Below, piece by piece: positions 48,596 to 64,000 of a stretch of 64,000 nt of DNA. The notes beneath the pieces are model-generated. The model had not been told where the DNA came from, searched no databases, and saw only the letters and a list, made by a program, of their open reading frames with translations. This DNA is from Nitrosopumilus sp. (GTDB lineage Archaea > Thermoproteota > Nitrososphaeria > Nitrososphaerales > Nitrosopumilaceae). Both the position numbers and the translations under genes were made by a program. The stretch spans positions 128,001-192,000 of the forward strand of contig CBDBGZ010000009.1 of assembly GCA_965205425.1 (NCBI GenBank). Direction: 5' to 3'. The stretch's first letter is position 1; the number at the start of each line of letters is the position of its first letter.

Positions 48596-48754
48596 TCATT
48601 TTTTCCATATTGACGTTTTCTTTCTACTAGAACAGAATCTTTCATAATTACCACAGTTATTGCATTTTAACAAATGATCGGAAGATAACCATGACCATCT
48701 AGTATTTTTTAAAAATCCTTTGTTGCATTTCTTACATCTTCTTTTTGTACTCAT
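48596..48754 (-). CDS. micro zinc-ribbon protein (52 aa)
   Basis: Manual translation CKKC..CNNC; ATGA overlap with the upstream gene. Confidence 0.6.
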   Translation of the reverse strand: MSTKRRCKKCNKGFLKNTRWSWLSSDHLLKCNNCGNYERFCSSRKKTSIWKK

Positions 48755-49766: not shown

Positions 49767-49803
49767 CAGTATAGATCAATTTCTGAGAATAAAAAAACTA
49801 GGT

Positions 49804-50355: not shown

Positions 50356-50400
50356 AAAAAGGTTATTTAAAGAAAAATTGCGATCAATAAAAAATTAGAT

Positions 50401-50499
50401 TCATTTTTGTATGTTTCCTACACATTTTGGACATGTCAGTTTATTTTTCAAAGCATCATGCACGATTCCTTTACCATCACAGTTTTTGCATAAACTCAA
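50401..50499 (-). CDS. micro zinc-finger protein (32 aa)
   Basis: CKNCDGKG..CPKC; overlaps the Dam stop. Confidence 0.5.
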   Translation of the reverse strand: MSLCKNCDGKGIVHDALKNKLTCPKCVGNIQK

Positions 50500-51047: not shown

Positions 51048-51193
51048 TTTTGATACCTCATAATCACTGCAAAAACAAAGGCACAATCACAACGACTACA
51101 AACGTTTAGTTTGTCTTTTAGTGTAACAAGATCATATTCTTCTGATAATTTCTTTCTACAAACAGGACACCAAATAACTAATCCATCAATCAT
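51044..51193 (-). CDS. micro zinc-ribbon protein (49 aa)
   Basis: CPVC..CSRC; ATGA overlap with Dam. Confidence 0.6.
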   Translation of the reverse strand: MIDGLVIWCPVCRKKLSEEYDLVTLKDKLNVCSRCDCAFVFAVIMRYQK

Positions 51194-51296
51194 ATTCTTC
51201 ATCCTCATATTCTTCATCCCCATACTCCCAATCTTGGGGGTTTTGTGTATCCTCATGTCCATTAGGATCAACATCAAAAGGAATTGGAAAACTCAT
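51186..51296 (-). CDS. small highly acidic protein (36 aa)
   Basis: Manual translation MSFPIPFDVDPNGHEDTQNPQDWEYGDEEYEDEEYD. Confidence 0.5.
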   Translation of the reverse strand: MSFPIPFDVDPNGHEDTQNPQDWEYGDEEYEDEEYD

Positions 51297-51586
51297 GCCA
51301 TACACTCCTGGACCTGTGCGGTTGTGTGATGGTCTTTAGGTCTGCCACAGGATATGCATTTCTCTTTTACTTTACCCCAAAAAGAGCCAGAGGATTTGGT
51401 TTTGTATCTTGGTTTAACAGATACAACAGTTACTGTATCATCTTCCGAATAATCATCTATTGTACAATTTGATTTTACTTTTATCGCACATTCCAAATGA
51501 TAGAATCTGTGATTAATTTTGATAAATGAATCCTGTAACTCTGAATACAATACAATGTCTTTTTTGCAAAAGGTACATTTTGTCAT
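51293..51586 (-). CDS. zinc-finger protein
   Basis: CTFC..YHLEC and CISC..H. Confidence 0.65.
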   Translation of the reverse strand: MTKCTFCKKDIVLYSELQDSFIKINHRFYHLECAIKVKSNCTIDDYSEDDTVTVVSVKPRYKTKSSGSFWGKVKEKCISCGRPKDHHTTAQVQECMA

Positions 51587-51821
51587 AGAACAACCTCCAA
51601 AGAGAAGATCCCTTGTGCAGTAGCAGTATCTACACAAGGGATACTATGGTCGGTTTGTGCCATGTTATTTGTATGACAATTTGCAGTGACTCCAAAGCTG
51701 CACAAATTACATGACAAGCAAAAATGATTCATCAATTATTCCATCCCTTACACATTCGGCAAATTTTATTTTCCGTGTCTGTTCTTCTACCACAGTCTTT
51801 TATGCAAAAATAATATCTCAT

Positions 51822-52244
51822 TTAGCACACACTCCATCCACATTTTAGACATTCTGAATAAATTGGGATATATTCTTCATCTGAAAATTCGTCTGCTTCT
51901 GATAGGTGGTATTCTGTTTCGCACTTTGTGTTGCATTCAGGACAAACTATAAGATCGTAAGGTATCTTACCCTCATCATTTTCAATATAATTATCTGCAC
52001 CATCAAAGATAGATTCCTCAATGTTGTTTCCTTTTTCATCCTTGATTTTTCTTACAACAGAGATTTCATCACATTCAAAGTCTATTGCAAATGTTGTTCC
52101 ATCATGACCTAGTTTCTTTACATAAATTGTATCATCCAAATCATCAATGGTACAATATCTTTTGAGATATTGTATGGTATGTTGTTTTGATAGTGTTGGT
52201 AGGATTTCAACACCAGGAAATAGGATTATTGGTTTTTGGTTCAT
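51822..52244 (-). CDS. acidic protein with C-terminal zinc ribbon
   Basis: CPEC..CLKCGW. Confidence 0.7.
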   Translation of the reverse strand: MNQKPIILFPGVEILPTLSKQHTIQYLKRYCTIDDLDDTIYVKKLGHDGTTFAIDFECDEISVVRKIKDEKGNNIEESIFDGADNYIENDEGKIPYDLIVCPECNTKCETEYHLSEADEFSDEEYIPIYSECLKCGWSVC

Positions 52245-52426
52245 GGTATAACTCCTGGTGGAACTTTGACATCCATAATTTCCGTCATGATGACAAAAGT
52301 GGTATTGCAGTCATTGCAGCAAAAACTATGCTCATTTAGATCCTCCCTTGTACTGACGCTGTTTGTCAATTCAACATCTTCTGACATACATTGACCATTG
52401 ATGCAGTGAATCTCGATTGATGCCAT
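52241..52426 (-). CDS. small zinc-ribbon protein
   Basis: C..QC..CNDC; coupled to neighbours. Confidence 0.65.
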   Translation of the reverse strand: MASIEIHCINGQCMSEDVELTNSVSTREDLNEHSFCCNDCNTTFVIMTEIMDVKVPPGVIP

Positions 52427-52574
52427 TAGATAATAATCTCCTTTTCTTTTTTGATTGATTTTTTATGATGTCTAATTATCTCATTTTTGATTTCATTTAG
52501 TGCAGCATATTTTAATTTGAGATGGTTACACTTTGAACATACCAGAATAAAAGATCGCAAGTTGCTAGGAATAA

Positions 52575-52787
52575 TCATTGAATAATTACCTCTTTTGTAG
52601 AGATTAAGCAAAAATTCTCTAGTGTGAAATTGATTGATACTTTTCTTATCTGTCTGTGTTTGTGATGTGTAGCATGGTGCTTTGATGATGATACCATAGT
52701 TTCAAAGCATTTACCGCATTTCTTGCAAGAGTATGGTATTTCAAACCCGAACAGATCAAATTGAACTGGTATTGATGGTGGTGTCAA
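52575..52787 (-). CDS. C2H2 zinc-finger protein
   Basis: YSCKKCGKCF..HHATHH. Confidence 0.65.
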   Translation of the reverse strand: MTPPSIPVQFDLFGFEIPYSCKKCGKCFETMVSSSKHHATHHKHRQIRKVSINFTLENFCLISTKEVIIQ

Positions 52788-53356
52788 TTCGGATAAATCT
52801 CCATGAGTTCTTTTCTTTCTGATTCGTAAAGACTGCCATGTGAGATTTCAACGTGCTTTCGGTAATCGTCTAGTTGTTCAAAGTTAAATGCCCTCATCTC
52901 TATTTTCTTGTTGCATCTCATGCAACGCAGAGTACCATTTTCTTGCAAGATTTTCTTTGGCTTGTGAGTTATTGTGGTACCGTATGACTTGAATTCCACT
53001 TTTGGTGTATCATCTGTTGCTGGTTCTGTGTGATTCTCTATTAAATTTGGAATCTCGCCATTGTTTACCAGTCTGGCAAAATCCTCAGGAGTTCCACCGT
53101 CTTTTCTAATTTCTTTCCATAGTTTAAGGCGATCAGATCCTAGTTTGATTCTTTCATGTTCTTGCTTTGTAGTTAGTGTTGTGTTGTATTCTGTATTTTC
53201 TGATTGTACCGTCTGAGTATTTTTTCCATTGATGAAATCTGTGAATAGATTCTTTGCAATTTCGTTTCTCTGCTCTATTGGGTATTTTGAGAGATATTTT
53301 TCTAATGTTTTATCATCCATGTTAAATTGAACTTTACGCTCAAAACTCAATGGCAA
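52784..53356 (-). CDS. putative DNA-binding protein (RHH-like N-terminus, C2H2 C-terminus)
   Basis: RKVQFNMDD..; CMRC..HVEISH. Confidence 0.65.
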   Translation of the reverse strand: MPLSFERKVQFNMDDKTLEKYLSKYPIEQRNEIAKNLFTDFINGKNTQTVQSENTEYNTTLTTKQEHERIKLGSDRLKLWKEIRKDGGTPEDFARLVNNGEIPNLIENHTEPATDDTPKVEFKSYGTTITHKPKKILQENGTLRCMRCNKKIEMRAFNFEQLDDYRKHVEISHGSLYESERKELMEIYPN

Positions 53357-53357
53357 A

Positions 53358-53771
53358 TTACTTGTTCCTCCTTTGTGTTATCAGTAGTTGGGAAATATTG
53401 AACAAAACACATTTTGCATAGACATCAAAGGAAATGTTTTGTGATTGACACCATTCCTCGTTAATAATTACTGGGTGATACCCAGCAGTGACATAGTCTG
53501 AATTTCTGTTATACGTTTGAGAAGACATTGACATTTCATCACCTGAACCGTGAATAGTACCATCTAGTTCTATCGGGATGGTATGACCATACTTTTTTAC
53601 TATAAAATCAGGATAACGCCTTTCATGAATGAAAGAATGATTAATGATAACCTCATTACGTAATGGATGAAATTCTGATAATTCCTTTTGCAGTTTATCT
53701 AGTTTGGTACTATCTGAATTACGATCTCTTTTTTTGGATGTTGCTGCCCTTACAAAGGATTTTCCTTTCAT
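53358..53771 (-). CDS. PD-(D/E)xK nuclease, Vsr/DUF559-like
   Basis: RYPDFIV..IELDGTIH..RN..Y...GY. Confidence 0.7.
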   Translation of the reverse strand: MKGKSFVRAATSKKRDRNSDSTKLDKLQKELSEFHPLRNEVIINHSFIHERRYPDFIVKKYGHTIPIELDGTIHGSGDEMSMSSQTYNRNSDYVTAGYHPVIINEEWCQSQNISFDVYAKCVLFNISQLLITQRRNK

Positions 53772-54028
53772 GCAGAAAACCTCTTGTTGATAAATTGGAT
53801 TATCTCGTTTAATTTTTTGCGATTATCTAGTGCAAGTGCTTCAGAGTAGGATATTTCACCAATAGATACAACAGGTAACGGAATGATTATTTTGCCTTGT
53901 TTTTTCCTAATGTGATGTTCCAACTGTACAATTATAGTTTCAATTTCAGATATTGCAGTTGGTGTATTGCCTAGTTCTAAGAGTTTTTTTATCTTGTCTA
54001 ATATTATGATGATGTTCTGATCTTCCAT
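53768..54028 (-). CDS. hypothetical protein
   Basis: Coupled 86-aa ORF. Confidence 0.6.
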   Translation of the reverse strand: MEDQNIIIILDKIKKLLELGNTPTAISEIETIIVQLEHHIRKKQGKIIIPLPVVSIGEISYSEALALDNRKKLNEIIQFINKRFSA

Positions 54029-54234
54029 TATTGTATAGCCCCCAATGGAATTTTTAATTTCCTAACGTCTGATTTTGTGACAAATGATAATCTTATTGCA
54101 CAACGCAAACAGAACTGTTTACTTCGTGGTCTTGATACTGCATACTTTCCTTCTAGTATGATTTTGCAGTGATAACAGGTGATGTTATGATACTTACAGA
54201 TGTATAATCGAGAGCCACGTGTCAGTTTGACCAT
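54028..54234 (-). CDS. small zinc-finger protein
   Basis: CYHC..FCLRC. Confidence 0.6.
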   Translation of the reverse strand: MVKLTRGSRLYICKYHNITCYHCKIILEGKYAVSRPRSKQFCLRCAIRLSFVTKSDVRKLKIPLGAIQ

Positions 54235-54346
54235 TATTTTTCATCCTCCATATTTGAGATTCCTAGTTCATCGCAAATTGCTACAAACTGTACCTTGCCA
54301 TGAGCCGATACATACTGATCATGTATGATTCGTCTTACTGCTGAAT

Positions 54347-55750
54347 TCATTGTATTACTCCTTTAAGTGAAGATTCAGATTTGTTACCGTTTGAATAGTA
54401 AATTAGGGCATGACCCCAAGAGCAGAACATTCTATTTGATTCAGGAATGGTGACTTTAGGAGGTCTGCAAAAATCACACCTTCCAGCGTGTAGTCTCTGC
54501 TCGTTTGTGAGTTTACCGTAAACTTGGGTGATCATGTTTGGATCATCCCAGCCTAAGGACATTACATATACGACATTGTAATTGCAACGTCTTAGCCACA
54601 TATGGCATCCTGAATGTCTTAAGGCGTGTCCTGGCTTGTTTGACAGATAGTATCTGTCACCATCAATTACTTTTTTGTAGACGTTAGGGTTGGTTACTGC
54701 ATCTCCTGAAATTCTATCTACACTTGCATATGCTTCTCGTAGTAGTTTATTGAATTTGGATTTTACATCTGATAGACTGGAATATTTCACGAATGTTTCA
54801 TTTGGAGTTAGCGTATTGAGTAATTCTAAACATCTTGGATTGAAAATCAGCTTGTCAAATGAAGCAAAGGTTTTCTTTTCATATACTCCTAGTGCTTCTG
54901 CATAATTGCAAATGTGATCCTCTATTGCTTCTTTCTTTAGTGTGAGATTATTTTTCATGGTGTGTAAAGTATCAGGTCTTGGTATCATTTCATGTGCTAT
55001 TGCAGTTAGTGCCTCAAAGTTGTATTTTGTTGAATGGTCTTTCATGAAATCTAGTATTTTATCAACTTCTAAATCTGATAGTTGGACGTTGGCATATGCT
55101 CCATAGTTTTCTTTTTTTCTTGATAATACACCATCAGAATTTTTTGGCAATGGCTTACCATTTCTAAAACAAAAGTTTGCAACTGCTGATACATATGCAG
55201 TAATTGATGTGTCTGCTCCTGACTTTAGATGTAGTTTGGAATTTTTCGATGTAGAATATTTTGTCTCACCAGCTAGGAATAATTCTTTGAATCTTGATAG
55301 TAGTTTTTCTGTTTCTTCTGGAGAAATTAAAAATGATAATGGTGCAACGTTTAGTGTTTTGCATACTGTGTAAAATGCTGAAACCTTACTTTTCCATGCA
55401 ACGATACCAGTTCCTTTCTTGCCACCTTTGAGCATTTTGTCAATCCATATTTTGACCTCTGGATTCTTACCATCAAGCCATTCTGATTTTAGTAATTCTT
55501 CATAGTGCTGTTTCTCTTTTTGAATTTGTGATTTTTTCACTCTACCTGATTTTGTCTTTTCTAATCTACCTTGTGAGATTAATTTCTTGAAATAATTAGT
55601 AATCATTGGAGGCGAACGATTAACTAATTCTGAGATTTGGTTTCTATTGTAGCCTTGAATTACCAAATCATAAACTCTGTCCAAAAGACGATTCTCATCA
55701 TCTTCTGAGCCAATACGACCACCGAAATTCTTGTAATTTCTACGTGCCAA
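54347..55750 (-). CDS. tyrosine recombinase/integrase with N-terminal HTH
   Basis: Catalytic set R(PDTL), K, HALRHSG, LGW, VY; N-terminal GYNRNQISELVNRSPPMI HTH. Confidence 0.85.
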   Translation of the reverse strand: MARRNYKNFGGRIGSEDDENRLLDRVYDLVIQGYNRNQISELVNRSPPMITNYFKKLISQGRLEKTKSGRVKKSQIQKEKQHYEELLKSEWLDGKNPEVKIWIDKMLKGGKKGTGIVAWKSKVSAFYTVCKTLNVAPLSFLISPEETEKLLSRFKELFLAGETKYSTSKNSKLHLKSGADTSITAYVSAVANFCFRNGKPLPKNSDGVLSRKKENYGAYANVQLSDLEVDKILDFMKDHSTKYNFEALTAIAHEMIPRPDTLHTMKNNLTLKKEAIEDHICNYAEALGVYEKKTFASFDKLIFNPRCLELLNTLTPNETFVKYSSLSDVKSKFNKLLREAYASVDRISGDAVTNPNVYKKVIDGDRYYLSNKPGHALRHSGCHMWLRRCNYNVVYVMSLGWDDPNMITQVYGKLTNEQRLHAGRCDFCRPPKVTIPESNRMFCSWGHALIYYSNGNKSESSLKGVIQ

Positions 55751-55992
55751 ATTCTTGCACTCCTGAAACCAGAATGCAAGGAAATGGTAGAAACTACAGT
55801 ATTGACTGAGAAGTTTGTGTATGAATTTTCTATTTTGTGTGTTTCCTTTGCATGCATGTTTGGACGTTGTGACTATGAATTAGTTGATCTTAAAGGTTAC
55901 TGTCAAGAAATATCGATCTAAATTTGTAAAAATTACGTCAAATTGACAATTCAGATCGCCAGAATATTATAGATCAATTCAAAAAAAAAAGA

Positions 55993-56064
55993 TGCAGTTG
56001 GGGTCAGCATACGTGTTTGGACGCTTGTATTGACTGTGTGGTTAAATCCATAGCCTCAACTGCA
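55993..56064. ncRNA. candidate small structured RNA
   Basis: Closing stem TGCAGTTGGGG / CCTCAACTGCA next to an A10 run; contains a 19-bp repeat. Confidence 0.45.
56025..56043 (+). repeat. 19-bp direct repeat, second copy at 61215-61233
   Basis: TTGTATTGACTGTGTGGTT. Confidence 0.85.
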
Positions 56065-56105
56065 CTAGAATTATAACCAGTATGATAAAGTCATGAAGGT
56101 TATTA

Positions 56106-57251
56106 TAGTTAAGGCATTAAATATTTGAATATTTTAACAACTCGAACGTCTCCATTATCTAGTCTCTTCTGCATGTGTTTTCTCATCTCAGTTCCATTTG
56201 CAAAGAATGTATTGGCATTACCATTTTTCTCTTCTCTCCACTGTACCTCAATTGGATTGAGTTCTGGGGTGTATGCAGGAAAATATCTTATGATTACATT
56301 TCTTTTTGATTTCTTGAGAAATTCTTTTACTCTGACACTTTTGTGGTATGATGCATTGTCTGCAAATAATAACAGTTTCTTGCCAAATTGTTTCTGCAGT
56401 GATTCTAAAAAATCAAGAAATGAGTCTGTGTTTGATTTATCATAGAACCTACAAAAAAATACGCCGTCATCCCCCAATGCACCAAATGATTGAAATTTTT
56501 CTCGAGTGTAATTAATTGGTGTGGTAATGTTATTGCCTGCAAGATACCATCCGCGCTTTATGTTAGGTGCTATCTTGTTTGTTGACTCATCCAGACATAG
56601 TGTGGTGTATCCCAATTTGGAATATTTTTTGATACTCCTTTTTGCGTTTTTTTAAAACGGGTTTGTTCCTCTTTTGAGGCTGATTTGTGATGTGTGGGAC
56701 GTGGTTTTTTTGATGAGAATCCAATTCTGTGCAGCAATTCACGCATTCCTCTTGCAGAGTATAGGGTGTTGTATTTTTTATTCACATGTGTAATTACCAT
56801 TCTTGTACTCCACATGAATTGGTTAAATCCAAACTTTTCTGGACCTGAAATTAGATCATTTCTTAATGATACTAGCTGTTTTTCATTTAGAAAACATCTA
56901 GAACCAGAATATTTCTTGCGGTGTGATGCAGATATTCCCTCTTCATCCATTCGATTTAGCCAGTAGGACAAAGTTGATGGTATGACATCCAGACTTGCAC
57001 ATATCACAGAATACGGAATATTTTGTTTTCTTAGTATTGCAGCCTTTAATCTTATCTTTGCTTTTGCATTTTTTTCATTCTTGCATACTTTTCTTAAAAA
57101 ATTAATGCTTGTACCTTTCATGAATTGATTTCCAGAGGAAACCTTGGATTGTCTTGTACTCTTTGACATGGTTTCATGAATTGATTCTACGATCTAGATC
57201 TTTTGAGTTAAAATACTTGACAGTTTATTCAAAATTTATATGCCTAAACTA
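56106..57251 (-). mobile_element. IS630-family element inside the provirus
   Basis: TIRs TAGTTAAGGCATTAAATATTTGAATA / TAGTTTAGGCATATAAATTTTGAATA; TA duplication. Confidence 0.9.
56109..57169 (-). CDS. IS630 transposase, two ORFs joined by a probable -1 frameshift
   Basis: TTTTAAAAAAAC slippery site at 56646-56657; LDES, ADNASYH, YTPELNPIE. Confidence 0.85.
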
Positions 57252-57324
57252 TATGTTCTAATCAGATTTGATAAAAATAGAAATAATTCTCAAAAGATTT
57301 AAGATTGTAAATTTATTCCAATAC

Positions 57325-57867
57325 ATGAAAATTGCATTAATTGCAGTTGTTGCAATAGTCGGAATTTTTGGAATTATTTATGTCATGGGTGATGATGATG
57401 AATCTACAAAATATTACAATGAATTTACAGAAGAAGATGTTAGGAATTTTGAGTTAGAATTATTTGAAATTACAAATCAGAAAAGAATTGAAAATGGTGT
57501 GCAACCCTTAGTATGGGATGATAGATTACATAGTATAGCAAAAAATCATAGCCAAGACATGGCAGAAAAGAATTATTTTAATCATAATAATTTGGATGGA
57601 ATGTCTGCTTTTGATAGGGGAAATAATGCATACTATGAATGTGAAAAAGAAAGAGAGAGTATTATGTATGAAGGAATTTCTGAAAATATTTCTCAAATGG
57701 GATTAGAACGTAAAAATTATGAATCAATAGATGAAGAAACTATCGTTGATGGTTTGATGAATAGTTCAGAACACAGAGAAAACATGTTAGATAATGCATA
57801 TATAAAAATTGGAATTGGTATTGCAATAAATGAAAATCATTTGTACACAACTCAAAACTTTTGTTAG
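57325..57867 (+). CDS. CAP/SCP domain protein 1, membrane-anchored
   Basis: TNQKR..L.WD..L..IAKNHSQDM..YFNH, ENI, NSSEHRENML, IGIG. Confidence 0.88.
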   Translation: MKIALIAVVAIVGIFGIIYVMGDDDESTKYYNEFTEEDVRNFELELFEITNQKRIENGVQPLVWDDRLHSIAKNHSQDMAEKNYFNHNNLDGMSAFDRGNNAYYECEKERESIMYEGISENISQMGLERKNYESIDEETIVDGLMNSSEHRENMLDNAYIKIGIGIAINENHLYTTQNFC

Positions 57868-57910
57868 TTTAGATCGCCAGAGATAAAAAGACAAAAGTAA
57901 TTTTTATTTT

Positions 57911-58108
57911 ATGAGTAAATTGTCAAACACAGACACAATGATTTTACTTGGAATTATTGGAATTGTCGTGTATGCCTTAATGACATATTCTTTAGACATA
58001 TCAAATAATGATACAATATGGATTGCGTGGATTATAATCAGTATTATTTTACTTGTAGTTGGGATTACAATCAAAGTATACACTAAAAATTCATCATCTG
58101 AAATTTGA
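57911..58108 (+). CDS. small two-TM protein
   Basis: Two hydrophobic helices. Confidence 0.6.
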   Translation: MSKLSNTDTMILLGIIGIVVYALMTYSLDISNNDTIWIAWIIISIILLVVGITIKVYTKNSSSEI

Positions 58109-58242
58109 TCTGTCAAACCTAAATTTTGCCACACAGTATCCTAGAAAAAATACTTTTCCCATCAATCCAAACAAAATTAATTCATACAACGGAGATTCCA
58201 AGATCCATCAGATACAACAAATGAGAATAAAAAAACTAGGTT

Positions 58243-58422
58243 TTATAGTTCCCACCATGCTTTAGTTTTCTTTGCTTTCTTTTTTGATTTAGTTTTCTTC
58301 TTGGAAATTCCAAAATCCAACAATCCTGGAATAGATGATTTACCATTAGACCTTTTCTTTGGGATTTTATCTATTGGATGTGGGCTATCTGCATGAATTC
58401 CTATTCTTGATTTTTCAAACAT
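58243..58422 (-). CDS. small Lys-rich protein with GLLDFG motif (59 aa)
   Basis: Manual translation MFEKSRIG...IPGLLDFGISKKKTKSKKKAKKTKAWWEL; below the ORF-track cutoff. Confidence 0.7.
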   Translation of the reverse strand: MFEKSRIGIHADSPHPIDKIPKKRSNGKSSIPGLLDFGISKKKTKSKKKAKKTKAWWEL

Positions 58423-58536
58423 AACGATAGAATTTAATGTATTTTATAGGAAATAATGATCTAAAAAGATTAGGTTTTGTTAGATTTAGATCCATAGTTT
58501 TTCACAATCTAAATAAATGATCAGATTTAGTAATAA

Positions 58537-59082
58537 ATGATGTCAATTTCAGTATCTTATCCAAAAATTATAGAATTGGAAGACGGTAATCAAGTTGAAA
58601 TTACAACAGACGTATGGAAAAATAGACAACTTGTTGTAGAAACTGACAGAACAGAAAAAGAAGTTAGGGAAATTTTTGAAAAAGAAGGCTTCAAAACAAC
58701 GATAAAAGAATTTGTTAAAAATAATCAATTGGGTTCTGGAATGGTTAAAAAAATTGATGATTGGCAAGTGCATTTTAGATTTTTCCAACATGGCGATCAT
58801 ATACAAATTGATGGAGAAGTTGAAGTTTCCAGTGATTACACACAACATCTTACACATGGTTGGATCTCTGCATTCAAAGAAAGTATGGATATAATTTCAC
58901 GACATTTTAATGAACTTTGGGTTTATCACACAAAACTAAAAAAATATGTGAAAAGAATTGTCAAAGAGAATATTTTAGAACTTACTGAACCAAAAACAAA
59001 GACAGATGTTATTGATTTGTTATTGATTGGTATTGGAGCATTGTCTGCTGGTTTGTTAGTTGCAAGTGCTTTGAAGAAATAA
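58537..59082 (+). CDS. hypothetical protein with C-terminal TM anchor
   Basis: 181-aa ORF. Confidence 0.7.
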   Translation: MMSISVSYPKIIELEDGNQVEITTDVWKNRQLVVETDRTEKEVREIFEKEGFKTTIKEFVKNNQLGSGMVKKIDDWQVHFRFFQHGDHIQIDGEVEVSSDYTQHLTHGWISAFKESMDIISRHFNELWVYHTKLKKYVKRIVKENILELTEPKTKTDVIDLLLIGIGALSAGLLVASALKK

Positions 59083-59084
59083 AA

Positions 59085-59621
59085 TTATTTGATTCCTTCT
59101 ATCAATGTTAAAATCTGAACAAAAATTATTATTTTTTCCATTGTTGTTTTTTTATCTCTAATTATATATGTTGAAATATTTTCAAAATTTCGATATGATG
59201 TTATTTGCTCACAAATATTTTTTGATGTTTCATAAAAATTTGAAGTTCTTATTTTATCTAGTATTTTCTTAACTTGAATATTATCCAACTTGTTCTCTAA
59301 TTGTTGAAAACAATACAATTTCCCTTTTTCTGTAAATATTAGAGAACCTGATGAAATGATTTGATTATCGTCATTTTTATATTCAATTGCTACATCATCT
59401 AGGATTCCAACCTCTTGAAAATATTCTAATTCTTTTTGTAATTGAGCCATATCATCATCATAGTTTTCTATATTGATATTGTTTTTCGTTTTATCACAAA
59501 AATTATTTATTTCATTTTTCACATGATTCATCATACTTCCTTTATTACGAATATAGAAAATAACCCATTGTTGAAAGTTTGTTAATTCAACAAACGGAAT
59601 AATCCTTGTTTCATCACTCAT
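59085..59621 (-). CDS. hypothetical protein, possibly winged-helix
   Basis: LTNFQQWVI..LEYFQEVGIL..FTEKGK. Confidence 0.6.
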   Translation of the reverse strand: MSDETRIIPFVELTNFQQWVIFYIRNKGSMMNHVKNEINNFCDKTKNNINIENYDDDMAQLQKELEYFQEVGILDDVAIEYKNDDNQIISSGSLIFTEKGKLYCFQQLENKLDNIQVKKILDKIRTSNFYETSKNICEQITSYRNFENISTYIIRDKKTTMEKIIIFVQILTLIEGIK

Positions 59622-59668
59622 CAGGTTAATTCAAATTTTTACATTTAATTATTTTATGTTGATCGCAA

Positions 59669-59884
59669 TCACCTATCATCTTTTTTCTCATAAATTTTTC
59701 CTAATTCCTCAAATAGTTTCTCATACTGCATCATTAGACTTTCAATTTCAGACTTTATTGTATCTGAATCCCATTTTGCTGCGATCAAGATTTGTATTCT
59801 TTCTAGTATTTCACGTTCAGTATCATATGATTCCTTTTCTAACGCTTCTTCTTGTTTGGTTTCTTTTGTTTCTTCTTTTTCCAT
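59669..59884 (-). CDS. acidic coiled-coil hypothetical protein
   Basis: 71-aa ORF overlapping the HNH 3' end. Confidence 0.55.
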   Translation of the reverse strand: MEKEETKETKQEEALEKESYDTEREILERIQILIAAKWDSDTIKSEIESLMMQYEKLFEELGKIYEKKDDR

Positions 59885-60825
59885 TTTTTAGATTCCTCAA
59901 GATTCCATCCGTGTAACTCATTATGACACTTTCGACATAGGGCGATCCCGTTGTTTTTGTTTAGCGAGAGTTTTGGTTGGATTGCCTTGTAGATTAAGTG
60001 ATGTGAGATTTCTGCTTTGGAATGACATATTTGGCACTTGTAATTGTGTAGTTTTTTGATGGTTGCAGACCATGATTGGAGGGCATAGCGGTATTCAGTA
60101 GGAGGGAGTTTGAGGGGAAAGCCTAGTTTTTTGAGTTGGTTTAGATTGGATTTTAATATTTTCTCAGGATAGAGTTTTCTATATTTCTTCTTATATTTTT
60201 TAGCCGTATCTTTATGTTTTAAACGATATTGTTTAGCTCGTTTATCGCATGTCTCTTTATTTTTTTGGTAATGATCTTTTTTGGCTTTTTTAATTTTTTC
60301 CTTATTTTCTAATGCATATTGTTTCTTACCTTCTCTGATCTTTTCTTTATTCTTTAAACGATATTGTTTTCGTTGTTGTTTTACATTATCTATATTTGAA
60401 TGATAATATTGATTAGTTTTCTTTTTGATTTTTTCTTTATTTTTGTGATAGTGTTCTTTTTTCTGTTGTTTTATTTTCTTTTTATTATCTAACCTGTATT
60501 GTCTACTTTGTTTATTGAGAATTATTTTATTTTTTTGACGATATAATTTAGTCTTTATTGAAATCTTTTCTTTATTCTTTTGTACATATTGTTTATTGAT
60601 TTGTTTGATTTTTTCTTTATTGTGTATACGATATTGTTTGTTATGTTTTAATATTTTTACTCTGTTTTTCTGATAATGTCTTTTTTTCTGTTTTCTAATT
60701 TTTTCTTTATTTCTTTTTCTATATTGTTTAGCTTGTTGTGCTATTTTTATTTTATTATTTTCATAATATTTCTTATCATATTTCCTTTGATTTTCTTTCT
60801 CTTCTTTTGATTTCTTTTTTGCCAT
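59839..60825 (-). CDS. HNH endonuclease with long Lys-rich helical repeat
   Basis: Many KQYRxxNKEKI units, then CQIC..SHH..NGIALCRKCHNELH. Confidence 0.85.
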   Translation of the reverse strand: MAKKKSKEEKENQRKYDKKYYENNKIKIAQQAKQYRKRNKEKIRKQKKRHYQKNRVKILKHNKQYRIHNKEKIKQINKQYVQKNKEKISIKTKLYRQKNKIILNKQSRQYRLDNKKKIKQQKKEHYHKNKEKIKKKTNQYYHSNIDNVKQQRKQYRLKNKEKIREGKKQYALENKEKIKKAKKDHYQKNKETCDKRAKQYRLKHKDTAKKYKKKYRKLYPEKILKSNLNQLKKLGFPLKLPPTEYRYALQSWSATIKKLHNYKCQICHSKAEISHHLIYKAIQPKLSLNKNNGIALCRKCHNELHGWNLEESKKWKKKKQKKPNKKKR

Positions 60826-60830
60826 TTCTA

Positions 60831-60923
60831 TTATTCTAATATTTGTCTACACATTTTACAAAAAATAGAATCATCCTCATCAATCTCATTTTCAAATCCA
60901 CAACGAGAACAGATAACTATCAA
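60831..60923 (-). CDS. micro zinc-ribbon protein (30 aa)
   Basis: CSRCGFEN..FCKMC. Confidence 0.55.
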   Translation of the reverse strand: MIVICSRCGFENEIDEDDSIFCKMCRQILE

Positions 60924-61075
60924 GAATAATACCTCTCAATTTCCTTGTTGCAGGTAACACATTGAACAATTACAATATCAGTAGATGGGATTTTGAATTC
61001 AGATGTTGATTCGTGTTTGCAAAATCCAGTTCTTAGATATAGGACTTGATCCTGTGTGTAATCTTTTTTAGGCAT
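60920..61075 (-). CDS. small zinc-binding protein (51 aa)
   Basis: CKH..CVTC; overlaps the next ORF. Confidence 0.55.
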   Translation of the reverse strand: MPKKDYTQDQVLYLRTGFCKHESTSEFKIPSTDIVIVQCVTCNKEIERYYS

Positions 61076-61080
61076 TATAG

Positions 61081-61177
61081 TTTAGAGTTATTGAGGGCTC
61101 AGAGGGTCACGGCTTCATCATATTGAAGTCAGAAATCACGCTTCCCGATTCTCATCATTGCCCTCAATTATTCTAAA
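61081..61177 (-). ncRNA. box C/D guide sRNA
   Basis: Stem-A-AUGAUGA(C)-19 nt-CUGA(D')-7 nt-AUGAUGA(C')-12 nt-CUGA(D)-stem; perfect 9-bp terminal stem AUUGAGGGC/GCCCUCAAU. Confidence 0.85.
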
Positions 61178-61252
61178 TTTTCACCTCCAGTTTAGGCCAG
61201 CAAACGTTTTGATTTTGTATTGACTGTGTGGTTTTAGTTTGCATAGTTATAA

Positions 61253-61314
61253 TAGGGCCCTACTTTAATATTAATGTTTAGGGCCCTATACAGTTAAATA
61301 TAACTAGGGCCCTA
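61253..61314. promoter_or_regulatory. three TAGGGCCCTA palindromes at 26-bp period in a divergent promoter
   Basis: Copies at 61253, 61279, 61305; AT-rich TATA-like 16-bp spacers. Confidence 0.8.
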
Positions 61315-61325
61315 TATCAAATCTA

Positions 61326-61490
61326 ATGATGCGAATATTAAAAAAAATAAATCGAACAGTTGGTGATAAACAATACTACAAATATCTAATTCCTGTTCCT
61401 AAAGAGATAATTGAAGATATGGGATGGTCAGAACTAACAAATGTTGATTTTAGGATAAAAGGAAAAATGCTCATCATTGAAAGAGAATGA
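61326..61490 (+). CDS. AbrB/SpoVT-like DNA-binding protein (54 aa)
   Basis: YYKYLIPVPKEIIEDMGW..VDFRIKGKMLIIE; ATGA overlap with CAP gene 2. Confidence 0.75.
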   Translation: MMRILKKINRTVGDKQYYKYLIPVPKEIIEDMGWSELTNVDFRIKGKMLIIERE

Positions 61491-62086
61491 ATTATTATCT
61501 CCTAGCGATTCCAGCTATTGTTTTTCTTTTTGCTTTTGCAGTTTTTAGAGATGTTGAACAATCTGATCCAACACTTGAACAATACATATCACTAGAACAC
61601 AGACCTAATTATGACTTGAAAAATATAGAAAAATTGTTAGTAGAATATACAAATGAAAAAAGAATCAAACATGGAGTACAACCATTAGAGATTGACAATC
61701 AATTATACCTTCTTGCAAAAGAAAGAAGTCATGATATGGTAACAGGCAATTATTTTGATCATGTGAATTTGGATGGTTTGACTGTACAAGATATTGCAAT
61801 CAATACAGGATACAAGTGTGAAAAAGAATATGAAGGAATATCTTATGACGGTGTATCTGAAAACATCGCATTAAGACCACTTTCAAAATCATACATAATT
61901 GAAAATGAAATAAAATTATATGACTGGCATACAAATGAAAAATTGTTTGCAGAATTGAGTATTAATTCCGTAATGGATTCAACGGAACATAAAGAAAATA
62001 TGTTACATCCAGTTAATACTAAAATAGGGATTGGAATAGCAATTAATTCTGAGAATAAATTATATCAAACACAATTATTCTGCTAG
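61487..62086 (+). CDS. CAP/SCP domain protein 2, membrane-anchored
   Basis: TNEKR, RSHDM..YFDH, SENI, DSTEHKENML, IGIGI. Confidence 0.88.
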   Translation: MNYYLLAIPAIVFLFAFAVFRDVEQSDPTLEQYISLEHRPNYDLKNIEKLLVEYTNEKRIKHGVQPLEIDNQLYLLAKERSHDMVTGNYFDHVNLDGLTVQDIAINTGYKCEKEYEGISYDGVSENIALRPLSKSYIIENEIKLYDWHTNEKLFAELSINSVMDSTEHKENMLHPVNTKIGIGIAINSENKLYQTQLFC

Positions 62087-62709
62087 TAATCCATCATACC
62101 TTTGAATCCAAAAGGATCATCATCACTCTTTTTCTTTCTTCTTTTTGATTTGGTTCCACTGCTTCCATAATCAAGTAATCCCTTAAACACAAAATCATCA
62201 TTGCTTTTCTTTTTACGTATGGTGGTTTTTGTATCGCTTCCATAATCTATCAATCCACTAAAACCAAAACTATTCTTTTTCTTTTCTCTCTTTGTAGTTG
62301 TCTTTCTCTTTCTCGTTTTCTTTTTTGGTTTCTCAGGTTCCATAAATCCAAAAAATCCACCTGAATCTTTCTTTGTTTTTCTCTTGGGCTTTGAATCTCC
62401 AAAAATTGAATCAGTTAATACAAACGGATCATTTTTCTCACGTTGCTTTCTTACTCTGATTTTTGTCTGTCTTTTTGTTTTGTTTCTGTGACAGTCAAGA
62501 CATAATGCTTGAAGATTTCCTATTGAGTTGTTACTAGGATCACCATCTCTATGATCAACATCATAATGTATTCCTCCTCTGCCTATCGGCTTGGAACAGT
62601 GATTGCATAGTTCTCTTTGACCTCGTGCTATTTTTTCTCGATTTGATTTTCCAACGTTCTTTCTCTTTGGTCTTAGTTTTTCTGTGAATCCATCAAAGAA
62701 GCCTGTCAA
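62083..62709 (-). CDS. HNH endonuclease with Lys-rich tail carrying three G[LM][LIM]DY motifs
   Basis: CNHC..VDHRDGDPSNNSIGNLQALCLDCH. Confidence 0.88.
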   Translation of the reverse strand: MTGFFDGFTEKLRPKRKNVGKSNREKIARGQRELCNHCSKPIGRGGIHYDVDHRDGDPSNNSIGNLQALCLDCHRNKTKRQTKIRVRKQREKNDPFVLTDSIFGDSKPKRKTKKDSGGFFGFMEPEKPKKKTRKRKTTTKREKKKNSFGFSGLIDYGSDTKTTIRKKKSNDDFVFKGLLDYGSSGTKSKRRKKKSDDDPFGFKGMMDY

Positions 62710-62779
62710 ACGATCTGATCATGAAAAAGGTAAAATAAAAAAGATCATAGATCGCTATTTTTACAAATATCTAATTTGC

Positions 62780-64000
62780 CTAAAAATCCCAAAATCCTTT
62801 TTTCTTGGATTTTTTAGTTATTGTTTTCTTTTTTTTCTTTTTTACTGGTTTATCATAATCCATCATTCCAGTTATGTTTGATTTTTTCTTCCCTCTCTTT
62901 TTGGTTGCAGAATAATAATCATCAATAGGTTGAGAACTGAAAACAGATTTACCTACTTGTGATTTTTCGAATACACCACGAATAGCATGTGCCTCATAGA
63001 TTTTTTTAGGTCTACCTCCACCACCTCCGAAATAACCAAATCCACTACCATATTTTCTAAATGCAAATCTTTGTCTTTTACGTTGTTTTGGTGTTGTAGT
63101 TGTTTTTGTTGTAGGTGGTCGATATACAGGAACAAAAACAGGATCTTCAACAGGAGGATCATCAATTATAGGATCTGTTATCTGTGTAGGTGGGTGATCC
63201 CAAAACAAAGTTACAAATCCTTGGTCCTGATCTTGTTTTGGTTTGGTTCCTTGTTTTGAATCCGGTTTTTTCTTGAGAGGATTATCAATTAACGGTTCTA
63301 ATATTGGTCTAACTTTCTGCTTTGGTTTTGTTTTTCTTCCAACTGCCATAATACTTAACATACCTCCAACCTTAACACCAGGCTTTACACCACTTTTCAA
63401 TTTACTTTTACTTCCTGTCTTTGCACCTTTTCTCACAGTTTTACTAACTTGTTTGGTAACCTGTCCGTTCTTTCCAGTGTTCCAAAAGTCTTTTAGTTTC
63501 TGTGTTTGATTTTTTACAGTCTTTCCAGTTTGCTTTGCTGCATTTTGTTGTACCCATTTAGGTTGAGTTTTTTGTTTAGTAGATTGTTTAGTAGATTGTT
63601 TGGTTTTATTTTTTTGTATCAACTGCTGCTTTCCTGATTTGACAACTTTTCCAAATCCTGATGATTCACCTAATGCTGCTCTACTGTTTTTGTGTGGTTG
63701 CTTTACTTTGGCATCTTTTCCCAATTTTAAAATTCTGTCTGAGACCTTTTTGTTATTTGCCATAATTTTTTTAACAGCATTACCCTTTGCAGTTTTTACA
63801 ACACCTTTGCCAAATATTTCTGAAATAGTTCTAGGTTCTAAATCAATTCCTTTTGGAATTTCTTTTGATGTAATGTTTCCAGTTTTTCTAATTAGTAGAT
63901 TAGGGTTTACTTTGTAAGATTCAGCCTTGCTAGTTCTGATACGATTTTTGTCAATTTTAGGAACCTTGCTTGTAGCTCGTGCATAACTTATAGGATCACC
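62780..64000 (-). CDS. C-terminal part of a large Lys/Gln/Thr/Pro-rich protein; 5' end outside the window
   Basis: Frame stays open from 63763 to the window edge (GDPISYARATSK...KKIMANNKK); ends GMMDY..KKKGFWDF. Confidence 0.8.
   Translation of the reverse strand, partial: GDPISYARATSKVPKIDKNRIRTSKAESYKVNPNLLIRKTGNITSKEIPKGIDLEPRTISEIFGKGVVKTAKGNAVKKIMANNKKVSDRILKLGKDAKVKQPHKNSRAALGESSGFGKVVKSGKQQLIQKNKTKQSTKQSTKQKTQPKWVQQNAAKQTGKTVKNQTQKLKDFWNTGKNGQVTKQVSKTVRKGAKTGSKSKLKSGVKPGVKVGGMLSIMAVGRKTKPKQKVRPILEPLIDNPLKKKPDSKQGTKPKQDQDQGFVTLFWDHPPTQITDPIIDDPPVEDPVFVPVYRPPTTKTTTTPKQRKRQRFAFRKYGSGFGYFGGGGGRPKKIYEAHAIRGVFEKSQVGKSVFSSQPIDDYYSATKKRGKKKSNITGMMDYDKPVKKKKKKTITKKSKKKGFWDF

What the first reader, a model, noticed from the sequence alone, without database searches (positions are those of the whole stretch)
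61081..61177. A provirus-encoded box C/D guide RNA
Seen (minus strand): AUUGAGGGC-A-AUGAUGA-gaaucgggaagcgugauuu-CUGA-cuucaau-AUGAUGA-agccgugacccu-CUGA-GCCCUCAAU. All four boxes match consensus exactly (C 61158-61152, D' 61132-61129, C' 61121-61115, D 61102-61099). The 3-nt K-turn bulge is correct, the D guide is the typical 12 nt, and the 9-bp terminal stem extends to about 18 bp. Known: archaeal C/D sRNAs load L7Ae, Nop5 and fibrillarin and methylate the ribose paired to the fifth base upstream of D/D'. That rule predicts targets AGGG[U]CACGGCU and AAAU[C]ACGCUUCCC. The 19-nt D' guide is long and can self-pair. I could not assign the targets; they loosely resemble tRNA arm junctions. Inference: the element reprogrammes the host 2'-O-methylation machinery (shielding RNA from defence nucleases or tuning translation), decoys it, or uses L7Ae binding to control its own operon, since the RNA sits in the leader of a leftward transcript. 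I know of no described archaeal viral example, but could not search.
Basis: partly seen in the sequence, partly recalled or inferred. Interest (0 to 1): 0.9.

Follow-up and report, generated by a model that had tools for sequence, protein, structure and literature searches.

The report
Guide RNA gene inside archaeal provirus
A textbook-looking box C/D methylation-guide RNA gene sits inside a 25-kb spindle-shaped-virus-like provirus of a marine ammonia-oxidising archaeon (Nitrosopumilus), which suggests that mobile elements of these archaea carry their own RNA-modification guides.

Summary
The minus strand 61177-61081 carries perfect C, D', C' and D boxes, a 12-nt D guide and a 9-bp terminal stem that extends to 18-nt arms. 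It is the only strict hit in the 2.2-Mb genome, against 0 hits in 10 simulated genomes.

The host is a Nitrosopumilus with fibrillarin, Nop5 and L7Ae. The RNA lies in a roughly 25-kb insertion that splits a phosphoesterase gene which is intact in relatives. This insertion shares an ATPase and several other genes with Nitrosopumilaceae spindle-shaped viruses, so "provirus" holds.

The sRNA is not a conserved viral gene: it was found in 0 of 5 related virus genomes and 0 of 9 related genomic loci. It belongs instead to an accessory class of perfect-box, long-stem C/D sRNAs that occurs in few Nitrosopumilus genomes. Members of this class sit beside IS transposases, plasmid-like genes and defence islands.

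Its D guide is identical to a guide of another species' accessory sRNA. The best candidate targets are tRNA-Ala(UGC) U47 and the tRNA-Asp(GUC) anticodon arm, and neither match is statistically compelling. The D' guide is an orphan.

Expression and protein binding are untested, because no RNA run was listed. My library searches found no archaeal-virus C/D sRNA in print. Verdict: a real, moderately novel feature whose function is unproven.

The parts
61081..61177 (-). box C/D sRNA gene with its extended terminal stem (arms 61160-61177 and 61081-61098)
   Evidence: Covariance model R1 scores it 69.2 bits; it is one of the model's training sequences.
61152..61158 (-). C box AUGAUGA
61133..61151 (-). 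D' spacer/guide GAAUCGGGAAGCGUGAUUU (19 nt). Alternative reading: the 12-nt guide GAAUCGGGAAGC followed by a variant D' box GUGA (61139-61136).
   Evidence: No target found under either reading.
61129..61132 (-). D' box CUGA
61115..61121 (-). C' box AUGAUGA
61103..61114 (-). D guide AGCCGUGACCCU (12 nt)
   Evidence: The same 12-mer serves as the D' guide of a different sRNA in G177. The core GCCGUGAC recurs in sRNAs of G207, G213 and G344.
61099..61102 (-). D box CUGA
61253..61316 (.). three copies of the palindrome TAGGGCCCTA at 26-nt spacing between divergent genes. Read as operator sites; a TATA-like TATTATAA (61254-61247, minus strand) abuts the copy nearest the sRNA.
   Evidence: repeats. 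The promoter and operator roles are inference from reading.
60920..61075 (-). 51-aa Cys-rich ORF whose start codon lies 6 nt after the sRNA's outer stem. The sRNA therefore sits in the leader of the leftward unit.
   Evidence: No Pfam family.
61326..61490 (+). 54-aa ORF on the other side of the palindromes; possible small DNA-binding regulator
   Evidence: PHROG 661, E 7.8e-6, function unknown. The only Pfam match is a non-significant MazE/AbrB-like one, E 0.16.
48447..64000 (.). left 15.5 kb of a roughly 25-kb provirus that runs on to contig C9:201394 (window-equivalent 73394)
   Evidence: an empty site in three relatives defines both junctions. Viral homologues are shown.
48438..48446 (.). 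left copy of the 9-nt junction repeat TTTCTAGAA; the right copy is at window-equivalent 73395-73403
48197..48454 (+). N-terminal 85-aa fragment of the host metallophosphoesterase gene that the provirus split
   Evidence: 13 of the 20 other genus genomes searched carry an open frame of 256-260 aa. maps the junctions. The C-terminal part at L003:9457-9903 has a PHROG phosphoesterase match.
54347..55750 (-). 467-aa integrase-like gene
   Evidence: 37% identical over 462 aa to a gene of the colinear G038 provirus. No Pfam match at E 1e-3. The recombinase assignment is inference.
56109..57169 (-). IS630-like insertion sequence (HTH plus DDE_3) inside the provirus
57268..57867 (+). CAP-domain gene, paralogue of 61487-62086. 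The two copies bracket the lineage-specific module that holds the sRNA.
   Evidence: Both match one gene of the G038 provirus, and nothing between them does.

Best explanation
Shown: the locus has the full sequence anatomy of an archaeal box C/D sRNA gene. It lies inside a roughly 25-kb provirus related to Nitrosopumilaceae spindle-shaped viruses, which is integrated into a phosphoesterase gene of a Nitrosopumilus chromosome. It sits in a lineage-specific accessory module between two CAP-domain paralogues. It resembles a patchily distributed class of perfect-box, long-stem C/D sRNAs that other Nitrosopumilus genomes carry next to IS transposases, plasmid-like genes and defence islands.

Inferred: the RNA is transcribed leftward from a promoter that overlaps the TAGGGCCCTA operators, as the leader of a small operon. 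It is cut out or stabilised by its long stem, and it is loaded with the host's L7Ae, Nop5 and fibrillarin, since the provirus encodes none of them. The resulting RNP acts in trans. Its D guide directs 2'-O-methylation of a host tRNA. The best-fitting site is U47 of tRNA-Ala(UGC), with 10 contiguous pairs at guide positions 1-10. The alternative is U35 of tRNA-Asp(GUC), with 9 pairs at positions 4-12. The D' guide has no identifiable target. The gene is best seen as mobile cargo, acquired from the pool of mobile sRNA genes and ultimately from a host sRNA gene, and not as a core viral function.
For: Anatomy and non-randomness.

Rfam: in E-value mode the matches at this spot are C/D families only, the best being sR3 at 28.1 bits, E 6.8e-5.

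Host machinery: fibrillarin 296 bits, Nop5 232.5 bits and L7Ae 91.6 bits, all outside the island.

Provirus:
- Three relatives have an uninterrupted site, and the insertion spans window 48447 to 73394 with a TTTCTAGAA repeat at both junctions.
- The island ATPase matches 10 phage-collection records, all of them Nitrosopumilaceae spindle-shaped virus.
- Five island ORFs, lying near both ends of the island, match the 5 fetched virus genomes at E <= 1e-3.
- G038 carries a colinear provirus that shares the ATPase, seven or more structural-module ORFs, the CAP gene and the integrase.

Relatives of the RNA:
- The pattern GAGGGCR-AUGAUGA...CUGA-GCCC, scanned over 185,579 species genomes, gave 19 stretches. 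Thirteen are in Nitrosopumilus, Nitrosopumilaceae or uncultured-archaeon MAGs.
- The terminal stem covaries at 3 of 8 predicted pairs.
- In 37 genus genomes most have 1-4 model hits at 29-37 bits. Hits of 45 bits or more occur only in G000, G207, G209 and G329.

Mobile contexts.

Guide conservation: 21 identical nucleotides (C/C' box, guide and the next 2 nt) are shared with a differently built sRNA of G177. The core GCCGUGAC occurs in sRNAs of G207, G213 and G344, three copies in G344.

Candidate targets. Both tRNAs are 99-100% identical in 5 of 5 genus genomes checked.

Positive control: the same target search gives 10 to 11.5-pair targets for 3 of the 5 other sRNA candidates of this genome. 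These are LSU 2014/2040, LSU 2018 and the tRNA-Leu(CAA) anticodon loop.
Against: There is no expression or binding evidence.

Rfam gathering thresholds are not reached: 0 matches in the window and 28.1 bits against 41 for sR3.

The tRNA matches are weak statistically. A score of 9.5 or more was reached by 17% of shuffled guides against the same 9.3 kb of stable RNA.

No site anywhere in the genome matches the 12-nt D-guide complement with one mismatch or fewer, apart from the gene's own antisense strand.

The D' guide is an orphan in both readings, and its 19-nt spacing breaks the usual 12-nt rule.

U47 and U35 are not positions I know to be ribose-methylated in archaea (recalled, not tested).

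The register of the shared guide core relative to the box differs by one nucleotide between sRNAs, which is odd for a site-specific guide.

The RNA is absent from 5 of 5 related virus genomes (best 16.8 bits, E 0.07). It is also absent from 229 kb around the ATPase homologues of 9 genomes (best 17.7 bits, E 0.028). The virus therefore does not need it.
Confidence: 0.55

Rival explanations
1. A selfish mobile sRNA element. The long inverted arms and the family's habit of sitting in IS-rich DNA mean the sRNA is a MITE-like or IS-associated passenger that landed in the provirus. Its guides are orphans or relics, and it does nothing for the virus or the host.
For: The arms are 18 nt long. Relatives occur in multiple or tandem copies: L045 has 3, L043 has 2, L025 has 4, and G344 has 3 near-identical copies. 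In L030, L031 and L089 an sRNA lies 36-80 nt upstream of an IS240-like transposase start codon, and the conserved sequence begins at the base of the stem. MITE-like C/D sRNA elements with orphan guides were described in Pyrobaculum calidifontis (PMC6009581, passages read). The D' guide is an orphan. The RNA is absent from related viruses.
Against: G000 holds a single copy. I saw no target-site duplication flanking the arms when reading. All four boxes are perfect and the D guide is identical to that of a distant sRNA, which argues for selection on function and against decay. This rival is compatible with the best explanation as an account of origin.
Confidence: 0.2
2. A cis-acting leader element. 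The two K-turns bind L7Ae on the nascent leftward mRNA and control translation or stability of the 51-aa ORF, the HNH gene and the rest of the operon. The guides are irrelevant.
For: The outer stem ends 6 nt before the ATG of ORF 60920-61075. I saw no separate promoter-like sequence between the sRNA and that ORF (reading). L7Ae binding to K-turns in mRNA leaders has been proposed for Sulfolobus (PMC5539422, abstract seen in the listing). Relatives also sit directly upstream of transposase start codons.
Against: A single K-turn would suffice for this role. The full C/D'/C'/D layout with a 12-nt C'-D spacing and a guide conserved across species is not needed for L7Ae repression. The downstream genes differ among family members.
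Confidence: 0.12
3. A decoy. A highly expressed perfect-box RNA titrates L7Ae, Nop5 and fibrillarin away from the host's few, weaker-box sRNAs during induction.
For: The five other sRNA candidates of the genome, apart from C8:147041, have degenerate boxes such as AUGAAGA or AUGAUGU and score 27-37 bits. The provirus RNA scores 69 bits, although it is a training sequence of the model.
Against: This is pure inference. There are no expression data. It does not explain why the guide is conserved.
Confidence: 0.05
4. A chance motif cluster or a dead relic with no RNA product.
For: There is no transcript evidence, and no Rfam gathering hit.
Against: There was 1 hit observed against 0 in 10 simulated genomes. 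The stem z-score is -3.54. The family shows stem covariation. A 21-nt identity links it to the G177 sRNA (E 5.4e-5 per genome).
Confidence: 0.04

Closest known systems
Archaeal box C/D sRNAs (methylation guides bound by L7Ae, Nop5 and fibrillarin; for example Sulfolobus sR3, Rfam RF01133)
   Same: C, D', C' and D boxes, a 12-nt D guide, a terminal stem closing the C/D K-turn, and a size of about 60-70 nt between the stems. The host has all three proteins.
   Different: It is carried by a provirus. The terminal stem is unusually long (18-nt arms). The C-D' spacing is 19 nt unless GUGA is the D' box. No convincing rRNA target was found. It scores below every Rfam gathering threshold.
MITE-like C/D sRNA elements of Pyrobaculum calidifontis (Lui et al. 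2018, PMC6009581; passages read)
   Same: The sRNA is flanked by inverted repeats, lies in unstable regions that do not align between genomes, and has orphan or non-conserved tRNA guides. Relatives are multi-copy.
   Different: It is a single copy in this genome, with perfect rather than degenerate internal boxes. It sits inside a virus-like element. No target-site duplication was seen.
Epstein-Barr virus v-snoRNA1 (Hutzinger et al. 2009, PMC2718842; abstract seen in the listings)
   Same: A box C/D guide-type RNA encoded by a virus genome that must use the host's snoRNP proteins.
   Different: That case is a eukaryotic herpesvirus with expression demonstrated. This one is an archaeal spindle-shaped-virus-like provirus with no expression data.
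Nitrosopumilaceae spindle-shaped viruses (BK067782-BK067792; PMC10866085, passages read)
   Same: The ATPase, named there as a core gene, plus the 225-aa protein, the Ig-like protein and HNH homologues. The size class is similar: 25 kb here against 27-37 kb.
   Different: This element is integrated and has an integrase-like gene. That paper has 0 occurrences of 'integrase' and 'provirus'. None of the 5 genomes fetched has a C/D sRNA. The major capsid protein was not identified here.

Membership tests
archaeal box C/D sRNA | 5' C box RUGAUGA and 3' D box CUGA | tested here: met
   AUGAUGA at 61158-61152 and CUGA at 61102-61099
archaeal box C/D sRNA | internal D' and C' boxes | tested here: met
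   CUGA at 61132-61129 and AUGAUGA at 61121-61115, separated by a 7-nt loop
archaeal box C/D sRNA | terminal helix that brings C and D together | tested here: met
   A perfect 9-bp helix that extends to 18-nt arms with 89% complementarity. The helix covaries in the 18-sequence alignment at 3 of 8 pairs.
archaeal box C/D sRNA | guide spacers of about 12 nt on both sides | tested here: inconclusive
   C'-D is 12 nt. C-D' is 19 nt with CUGA as the D' box, or 12 nt if GUGA (61139-61136) is the D' box.
archaeal box C/D sRNA | guide complementary over 10 nt or more to rRNA or tRNA around the fifth position from the box | tested here: inconclusive
   D guide: 10 pairs including one G-U with tRNA-Ala(UGC) 43-52, and 9 pairs with tRNA-Asp(GUC) 34-42. 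Of shuffled guides, 17% score as well. D' guide: best 7 to 7.5.
archaeal box C/D sRNA | score above the gathering threshold of an Rfam C/D family | tested here: not met
   There were 0 gathering matches. The best is sR3 at 28.1 bits against 41. Rfam C/D families are guide-specific, so this speaks against membership of those named families and not against the class.
archaeal box C/D sRNA | assembly with L7Ae, Nop5 and fibrillarin, and methyl transfer | not testable with these tools
   The host genes are present. Binding and activity need wet-lab work.
archaeal box C/D sRNA | expressed as a discrete small RNA | not testable with these tools
   No RNA run was listed.
provirus of the Nitrosopumilaceae spindle-shaped virus group | insertion absent from related genomes, with defined junctions | tested here: met
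provirus of the Nitrosopumilaceae spindle-shaped virus group | core ATPase shared by the group | tested here: met
   All 10 phage-collection matches are this virus group, with E values from 4e-21 to 6e-9.
provirus of the Nitrosopumilaceae spindle-shaped virus group | major capsid protein and the other core genes named in PMC10866085 | not tested
   Only the 225-aa, Ig-like, HNH and methyltransferase ORFs matched in addition to the ATPase. The capsid protein was not identified.
MITE-like sRNA element | several copies with conserved flanks in one genome, and a target-site duplication | tested here: not met
   G000 has one copy. I saw no duplication next to the arms. Some relatives in other genomes do meet the multi-copy criterion.

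The most novel reading that the evidence does not exclude
Mobile elements of Nitrosopumilus (a spindle-shaped-virus provirus, IS240-like transposons, plasmid- or ICE-like elements and defence islands) traffic a pool of perfect-box C/D guide RNAs that re-write host tRNA and rRNA ribose methylation. The provirus copy, and the relatives that share its GCCGUGAC guide core, would methylate the tRNA-Asp anticodon arm or the tRNA-Ala variable loop. This could shield these tRNAs from tRNA-cleaving defence nucleases or bias decoding in the element's favour. That would amount to an RNA-guided epitranscriptomic counter-defence carried by an archaeal virus.
Probability: 0.12. Interest if true: 0.9.

Novelty: new variant of a known kind. 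Interest (0 to 1): 0.62.

Why it matters
Box C/D guides are regarded as housekeeping genes of the cell. [quoted passage not shown]

This work gives a concrete, testable case of such a guide inside an archaeal provirus. It also shows that in one genus the best-formed C/D sRNAs are accessory genes that travel with viruses, transposases, plasmid-like elements and defence islands.

If the RNA is active, viruses and other mobile elements can alter host tRNA or rRNA modification simply by supplying a 70-nt RNA and using the host enzyme. The case would also give mesophilic ammonia oxidisers, which have very few sRNAs, a variable epitranscriptome.

Tried and rejected
- Expression: the look-up of sequencing runs listed no RNA holder.
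- Sequence variation: laying contigs of four DNA runs showed only identical sequence, so there is no variation with which to test selection.
- Rfam at gathering thresholds: nothing in the window.
- Exact D-guide pattern: 0 matches in IMG/VR and 0 in JGI metagenomes.
- Family pattern in IMG/VR: 1 stretch, GC 0.62, which did not reach E 0.001 with R1.
- Family pattern in metagenomes: 16 stretches. Four reached E 0.001 with R1, the best being L078 at 46.6 bits. None was followed up.
- blastn of the sRNA against the phage collection: only a 24-nt chance match.
- Integrase-like protein: no match in the phage collection or IMG/VR.
- ATPase in IMG/VR by peptide patterns: none confirmed.
- A BLAST search for att repeats between the island flanks missed the 9-nt repeat. 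Comparison with empty sites in relatives found it.
- A permissive scan for antisense 9-mers next to box-like motifs gave 536 hits and was uninformative.
- blastp between island ORFs and the contexts of relatives' sRNAs (L025-L028): no shared proteins. The sRNA therefore does not travel with a fixed protein partner.
- rRNA as target of the window's guides: the best match is LSU 1077, 10 of 12 pairs with a mismatch next to the target nucleotide. I judged it unconvincing.
- The TTTAGAATAA directly upstream of the stem as the sRNA's own TATA box: rejected by my own positional reasoning, because it would place the start site inside the RNA.
- Not done: 5 of the 10 matching virus records were not fetched. 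Structure prediction, complex prediction and the large protein searches were not used.

Full report
**1. The observation**

Reading the minus strand confirms every element at the stated coordinates:
- the stem AUUGAGGGC (61168-61160), followed by a single A;
- the C box AUGAUGA (61158-61152);
- a 19-nt spacer;
- the D' box CUGA (61132-61129) and a 7-nt loop;
- the C' box AUGAUGA (61121-61115);
- the 12-nt guide AGCCGUGACCCU;
- the D box CUGA (61102-61099);
- the stem GCCCUCAAU (61098-61090).

The stem continues after a 3-nt internal loop, giving 18-nt arms with 89% complementarity. The 105-nt RNA folds at -28.1 kcal/mol. Its z-score is -3.54, and 0 of 200 shuffles fold as well.

A strict four-box expression hits only this site in the 2,195,935-base genome. 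It hits nothing in 10 simulated genomes of the same dinucleotide make-up.

Rfam gives no gathering-level match. In E-value mode the spot matches only C/D families, and the best is Sulfolobus sR3 at 28.1 bits against a gathering score of 41, E 6.8e-5.

One refinement: a GUGA lies exactly 12 nt after the C box. The D' guide may therefore be the canonical 12-mer GAAUCGGGAAGC with a variant D' box. The aligner placed that GUGA under the D' boxes of the relatives.

**2. The organism and its machinery**

The genome has 33% GC, 9 contigs and 99.55% completeness. G177, a genome of the same genus, is a record titled Nitrosopumilus sp., with matching length and locus position.

Fibrillarin, Nop5 and L7Ae are all encoded in the chromosome and outside the island.

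A covariance model built from 18 related sRNAs (A1 and R1) finds six sRNA candidates with E < 1e-3 in the genome:
- the finding itself, at 69.2 bits (it is a training sequence);
- C8:147041, at 43.1 bits;
- four further candidates at 27-37 bits with degenerate boxes.

As a control on my target search, three of the five other candidates get clear targets:
- C9:443443 pairs with LSU 2012-2021 and 2037-2046.
- C9:124218 pairs with LSU 2015-2025.
- C9:836222 pairs with the tRNA-Leu(CAA) anticodon loop, at 11.5 pairs.

**3. Is it in a provirus?**

Yes. Window 1-48,000 is housekeeping DNA with IS copies. From about 48.5 kb onward the ORFs are mostly without family.

The 85-aa ORF at 48197-48454 is the N-terminus of a metallophosphoesterase. 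In 13 of the 20 other genus genomes searched this gene is one open frame of 256-260 aa. Three relatives align continuously across the site. In G000 the alignment breaks at window 48447 and resumes at window-equivalent 73397. A 9-nt repeat, TTTCTAGAA, marks both junctions. The insertion is therefore about 24.95 kb.

Links to known viruses:
- Its P-loop ATPase matches 10 records of the phage collection, all named Nitrosopumilaceae spindle-shaped virus. The paper that describes these viruses names this ATPase as a shared core gene (PMC10866085, passages read).
- Four further island ORFs match the five virus genomes I fetched. They are the 225-aa protein at 49089-49766, a Dam-like methyltransferase, an HNH protein and a 530-aa Ig-like protein.
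- These ORFs lie near both ends of the island, so it is one element.

G038, of the same genus, has a colinear relative. It shares the ATPase (40% identity), seven or more ORFs of the adjacent module, the CAP-domain gene and the 467-aa integrase-like gene (37% over 462 aa).

An IS630-like element has inserted at 56109-57169. Short att sites and integration into protein-coding genes are reported for thaumarchaeal elements (PMC6563490, passages read).

**4. Is the RNA a viral feature?**

No, not a conserved one.
- R1 finds nothing significant in the 5 virus genomes (best 16.8 bits, E 0.07).
- R1 finds nothing significant in 228,671 bases around the ATPase homologues of 9 other genomes, including the G038 provirus (best 17.7 bits, E 0.028).
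- BLAST of the RNA over 201 family genomes finds no orthologue.

The sRNA lies in a segment (57.9-61.5 kb) bracketed by two CAP-domain paralogues. Both paralogues match a single gene of the G038 provirus, and nothing between them matches. This is a lineage-specific accessory module.

Upstream of the RNA are three TAGGGCCCTA palindromes at 26-nt spacing, between divergent genes. I read these as operators. A TATA-like TATTATAA abuts the nearest copy, which would start the leftward transcript about 45 nt before the stem. The 51-aa ORF starts 6 nt after the stem. The promoter and operator roles are inference.

**5. Relatives of the RNA**

The stem-plus-box pattern was scanned over one genome for each of 185,579 species. 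It gave 19 stretches:
- 13 in Nitrosopumilus, Nitrosopumilaceae or uncultured-archaeon MAGs (12 distinct places, because two stretches overlap);
- 6 in high-GC bacterial or unclassified contigs that lack the internal boxes.

The archaeal copies have canonical boxes and mostly 12-13-nt D' guides and 10-13-nt D guides. Three of the 17 could not be parsed by my script. They have long stems that covary.

In a scan of 37 genus genomes, hits of 45 bits or more occur only in G000, G207, G209 and G329. Nearly all genomes have 1-4 hits at 29-37 bits. The perfect-box class is therefore accessory.

Its surroundings:
- An IS240-like transposase starts 36-80 nt downstream in L030, L031 and L089. In G177 (L026) one lies about 500 nt downstream.
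- Actin/ParM-like and TraG-like genes flank L045, L047/L028 and L090.
- Restriction-modification, BREX-like or Abi genes flank L025, L031, L037 and L103.
- Tandem arrays occur: L045 has 3 units, L043 has 2 and L025 has 4.

G000's own second perfect-box sRNA (C8:147041) lies between an AbiE pair, IS fragments and a TraG-like gene.

Some guides of this class converge on rRNA sites that the other (chromosomal) sRNA candidates of G000 also target. Examples are the LSU 2018-2027 region and SSU 1345-1355. Overall, 8 of 30 guides reach 10 pairs or more, against 8.7% of shuffles. This is a modest excess.

The 5' flank and stem of the finding (UUUAGAAUAAUUGAGGGCAAUGAUGA) resemble those of a chromosomal sRNA of a relative (L013) and of G000's C9:1058284. 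This hints at capture from a host gene, which is inference.

**6. Targets**

No site in the genome matches the D-guide complement with one mismatch or fewer, except the gene's own antisense strand. The best rRNA match is unconvincing.

The D guide pairs with two tRNAs:
- tRNA-Ala(UGC) positions 43-52: 10 contiguous pairs, one of them G-U, at guide positions 1-10, which predicts Um47.
- tRNA-Asp(GUC) positions 34-42: 9 pairs at guide positions 4-12, which predicts Um35.

A score this good is reached by 17% of shuffled guides, so neither match stands on its own.

Guide conservation adds weight:
- The same 12-mer, with its adjoining box and the next two bases (21 nt in all), is the D' guide of a differently built sRNA in G177. 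That sRNA is itself absent from 30 other genus genomes.
- The core GCCGUGAC is the D' guide of GAAGGC-stem sRNAs in G207, G213 and G344, three copies in G344. There it pairs with 9-10 nt of the tRNA-Asp anticodon arm.
- Both tRNAs are 99-100% identical in the 5 genus genomes checked.

Against a strict site-specific role, the register of the core relative to the box shifts by one nucleotide between sRNAs.

The D' guide has no target in either reading.

**7. Literature**

My searches found no archaeal virus-encoded C/D sRNA. The two thaumarchaeal and archaeal provirus surveys have 0 occurrences of sRNA or snoRNA.

The nearest precedents:
- EBV v-snoRNA1 (PMC2718842, abstract only).
- MITE-like C/D sRNA elements of Pyrobaculum calidifontis (PMC6009581, passages read).

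[quoted passage not shown] I did not read supplements, and subscription journals are outside the library.

**8. Verdict**

The "provirus" label is right. The RNA has the sequence anatomy of a C/D guide.

It is not a conserved viral function. It is cargo of an accessory, mobile class of C/D sRNAs in Nitrosopumilus.

Its activity, its targets and any benefit to the element are unproven. tRNA-Ala(UGC) and tRNA-Asp(GUC) are candidate targets only.

Counts include three unpublished genomes (G077, G092, G093). No specific claim rests on them.

Noticed in passing
window 61253-61316: Three copies of the 10-bp palindrome TAGGGCCCTA at exactly 26-nt spacing, between the divergent 54-aa ORF (61326-61490, +) and the sRNA / 51-aa ORF unit. 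It looks like the operator array of a genetic switch of the provirus.
   Followed up: partly
G000 contig C8:147041-147135 (L103:8042-8136): A second perfect-C-box sRNA of the same genome (GAAGGC stem, 43.1 bits). It lies between an AbiEii/AbiEi pair, IS4/5 and IS630 fragments and a TraG-like ATPase. By BLAST, relatives occur in only 3 of 61 genus genomes, with 4 matches in G344.
   Followed up: partly
L030:2501-3661, L031:2501-3733, L089:8001-9251: Perfect-box C/D sRNAs lie 36-80 nt upstream of the start codon of IS240-like DDE transposases in three different Nitrosopumilus genomes. The conserved sequence begins at the base of the sRNA's roughly 20-bp stem, and a shared TTATTAATTTT[CT]GAGGT motif precedes the ATG. 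The sRNA may be part of the transposon.
   Followed up: partly
L025:1796-1844 (-): A type I hammerhead ribozyme (Rfam RF00163, 35.4 bits against a gathering score of 34) lies directly downstream of one of four tandem sRNA units on a Nitrosopumilaceae contig, next to a BREX-like methylase and a PLD-helicase. Hammerhead-like motifs follow other units there and in L043 and L092, but these did not reach the threshold.
   Followed up: partly
L045:2501-3032: Three C/D sRNA cassettes in tandem at a period of about 234 nt, with conserved flanks and different guides. Two of the D' guides pair with SSU 1345-1355.
   Followed up: no
G000 C9:443443-443528, C9:124218-124302, C9:836222-836303, C9:1058284-1058367: The other chromosomal C/D sRNA candidates of this mesophile have degenerate boxes. 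Three have clear targets: LSU 2014 and 2040, LSU 2018, and the tRNA-Leu(CAA) anticodon loop.
   Followed up: partly
window 48197-48454 and relatives G195, G214: The metallophosphoesterase gene split by the provirus also appears truncated or split in two other genus genomes. It may be a recurrent integration site.
   Followed up: no
window 3149-4096, 19689-20636, 43339-44289: Three copies of a 316-aa rve-type IS transposase gene within 45 kb of host DNA, plus further IS elements at 28203-28898, 34557-35471 and 35726-36673. This chromosome region is very IS-rich.
   Followed up: no
window 59839-60825, 62083-62709, 62780-64000: Lysine-rich repetitive proteins of the provirus. Two carry HNH nuclease domains, and two end in MMDY or FWDF. 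Their function is unknown.
   Followed up: no
L037 and L048 (Nitrosopumilus MAG record OY759726.1): Two sRNA-bearing loci with about 60% GC in a genus whose genomes are about 33% GC. This is presumably foreign or mis-binned DNA.
   Followed up: no
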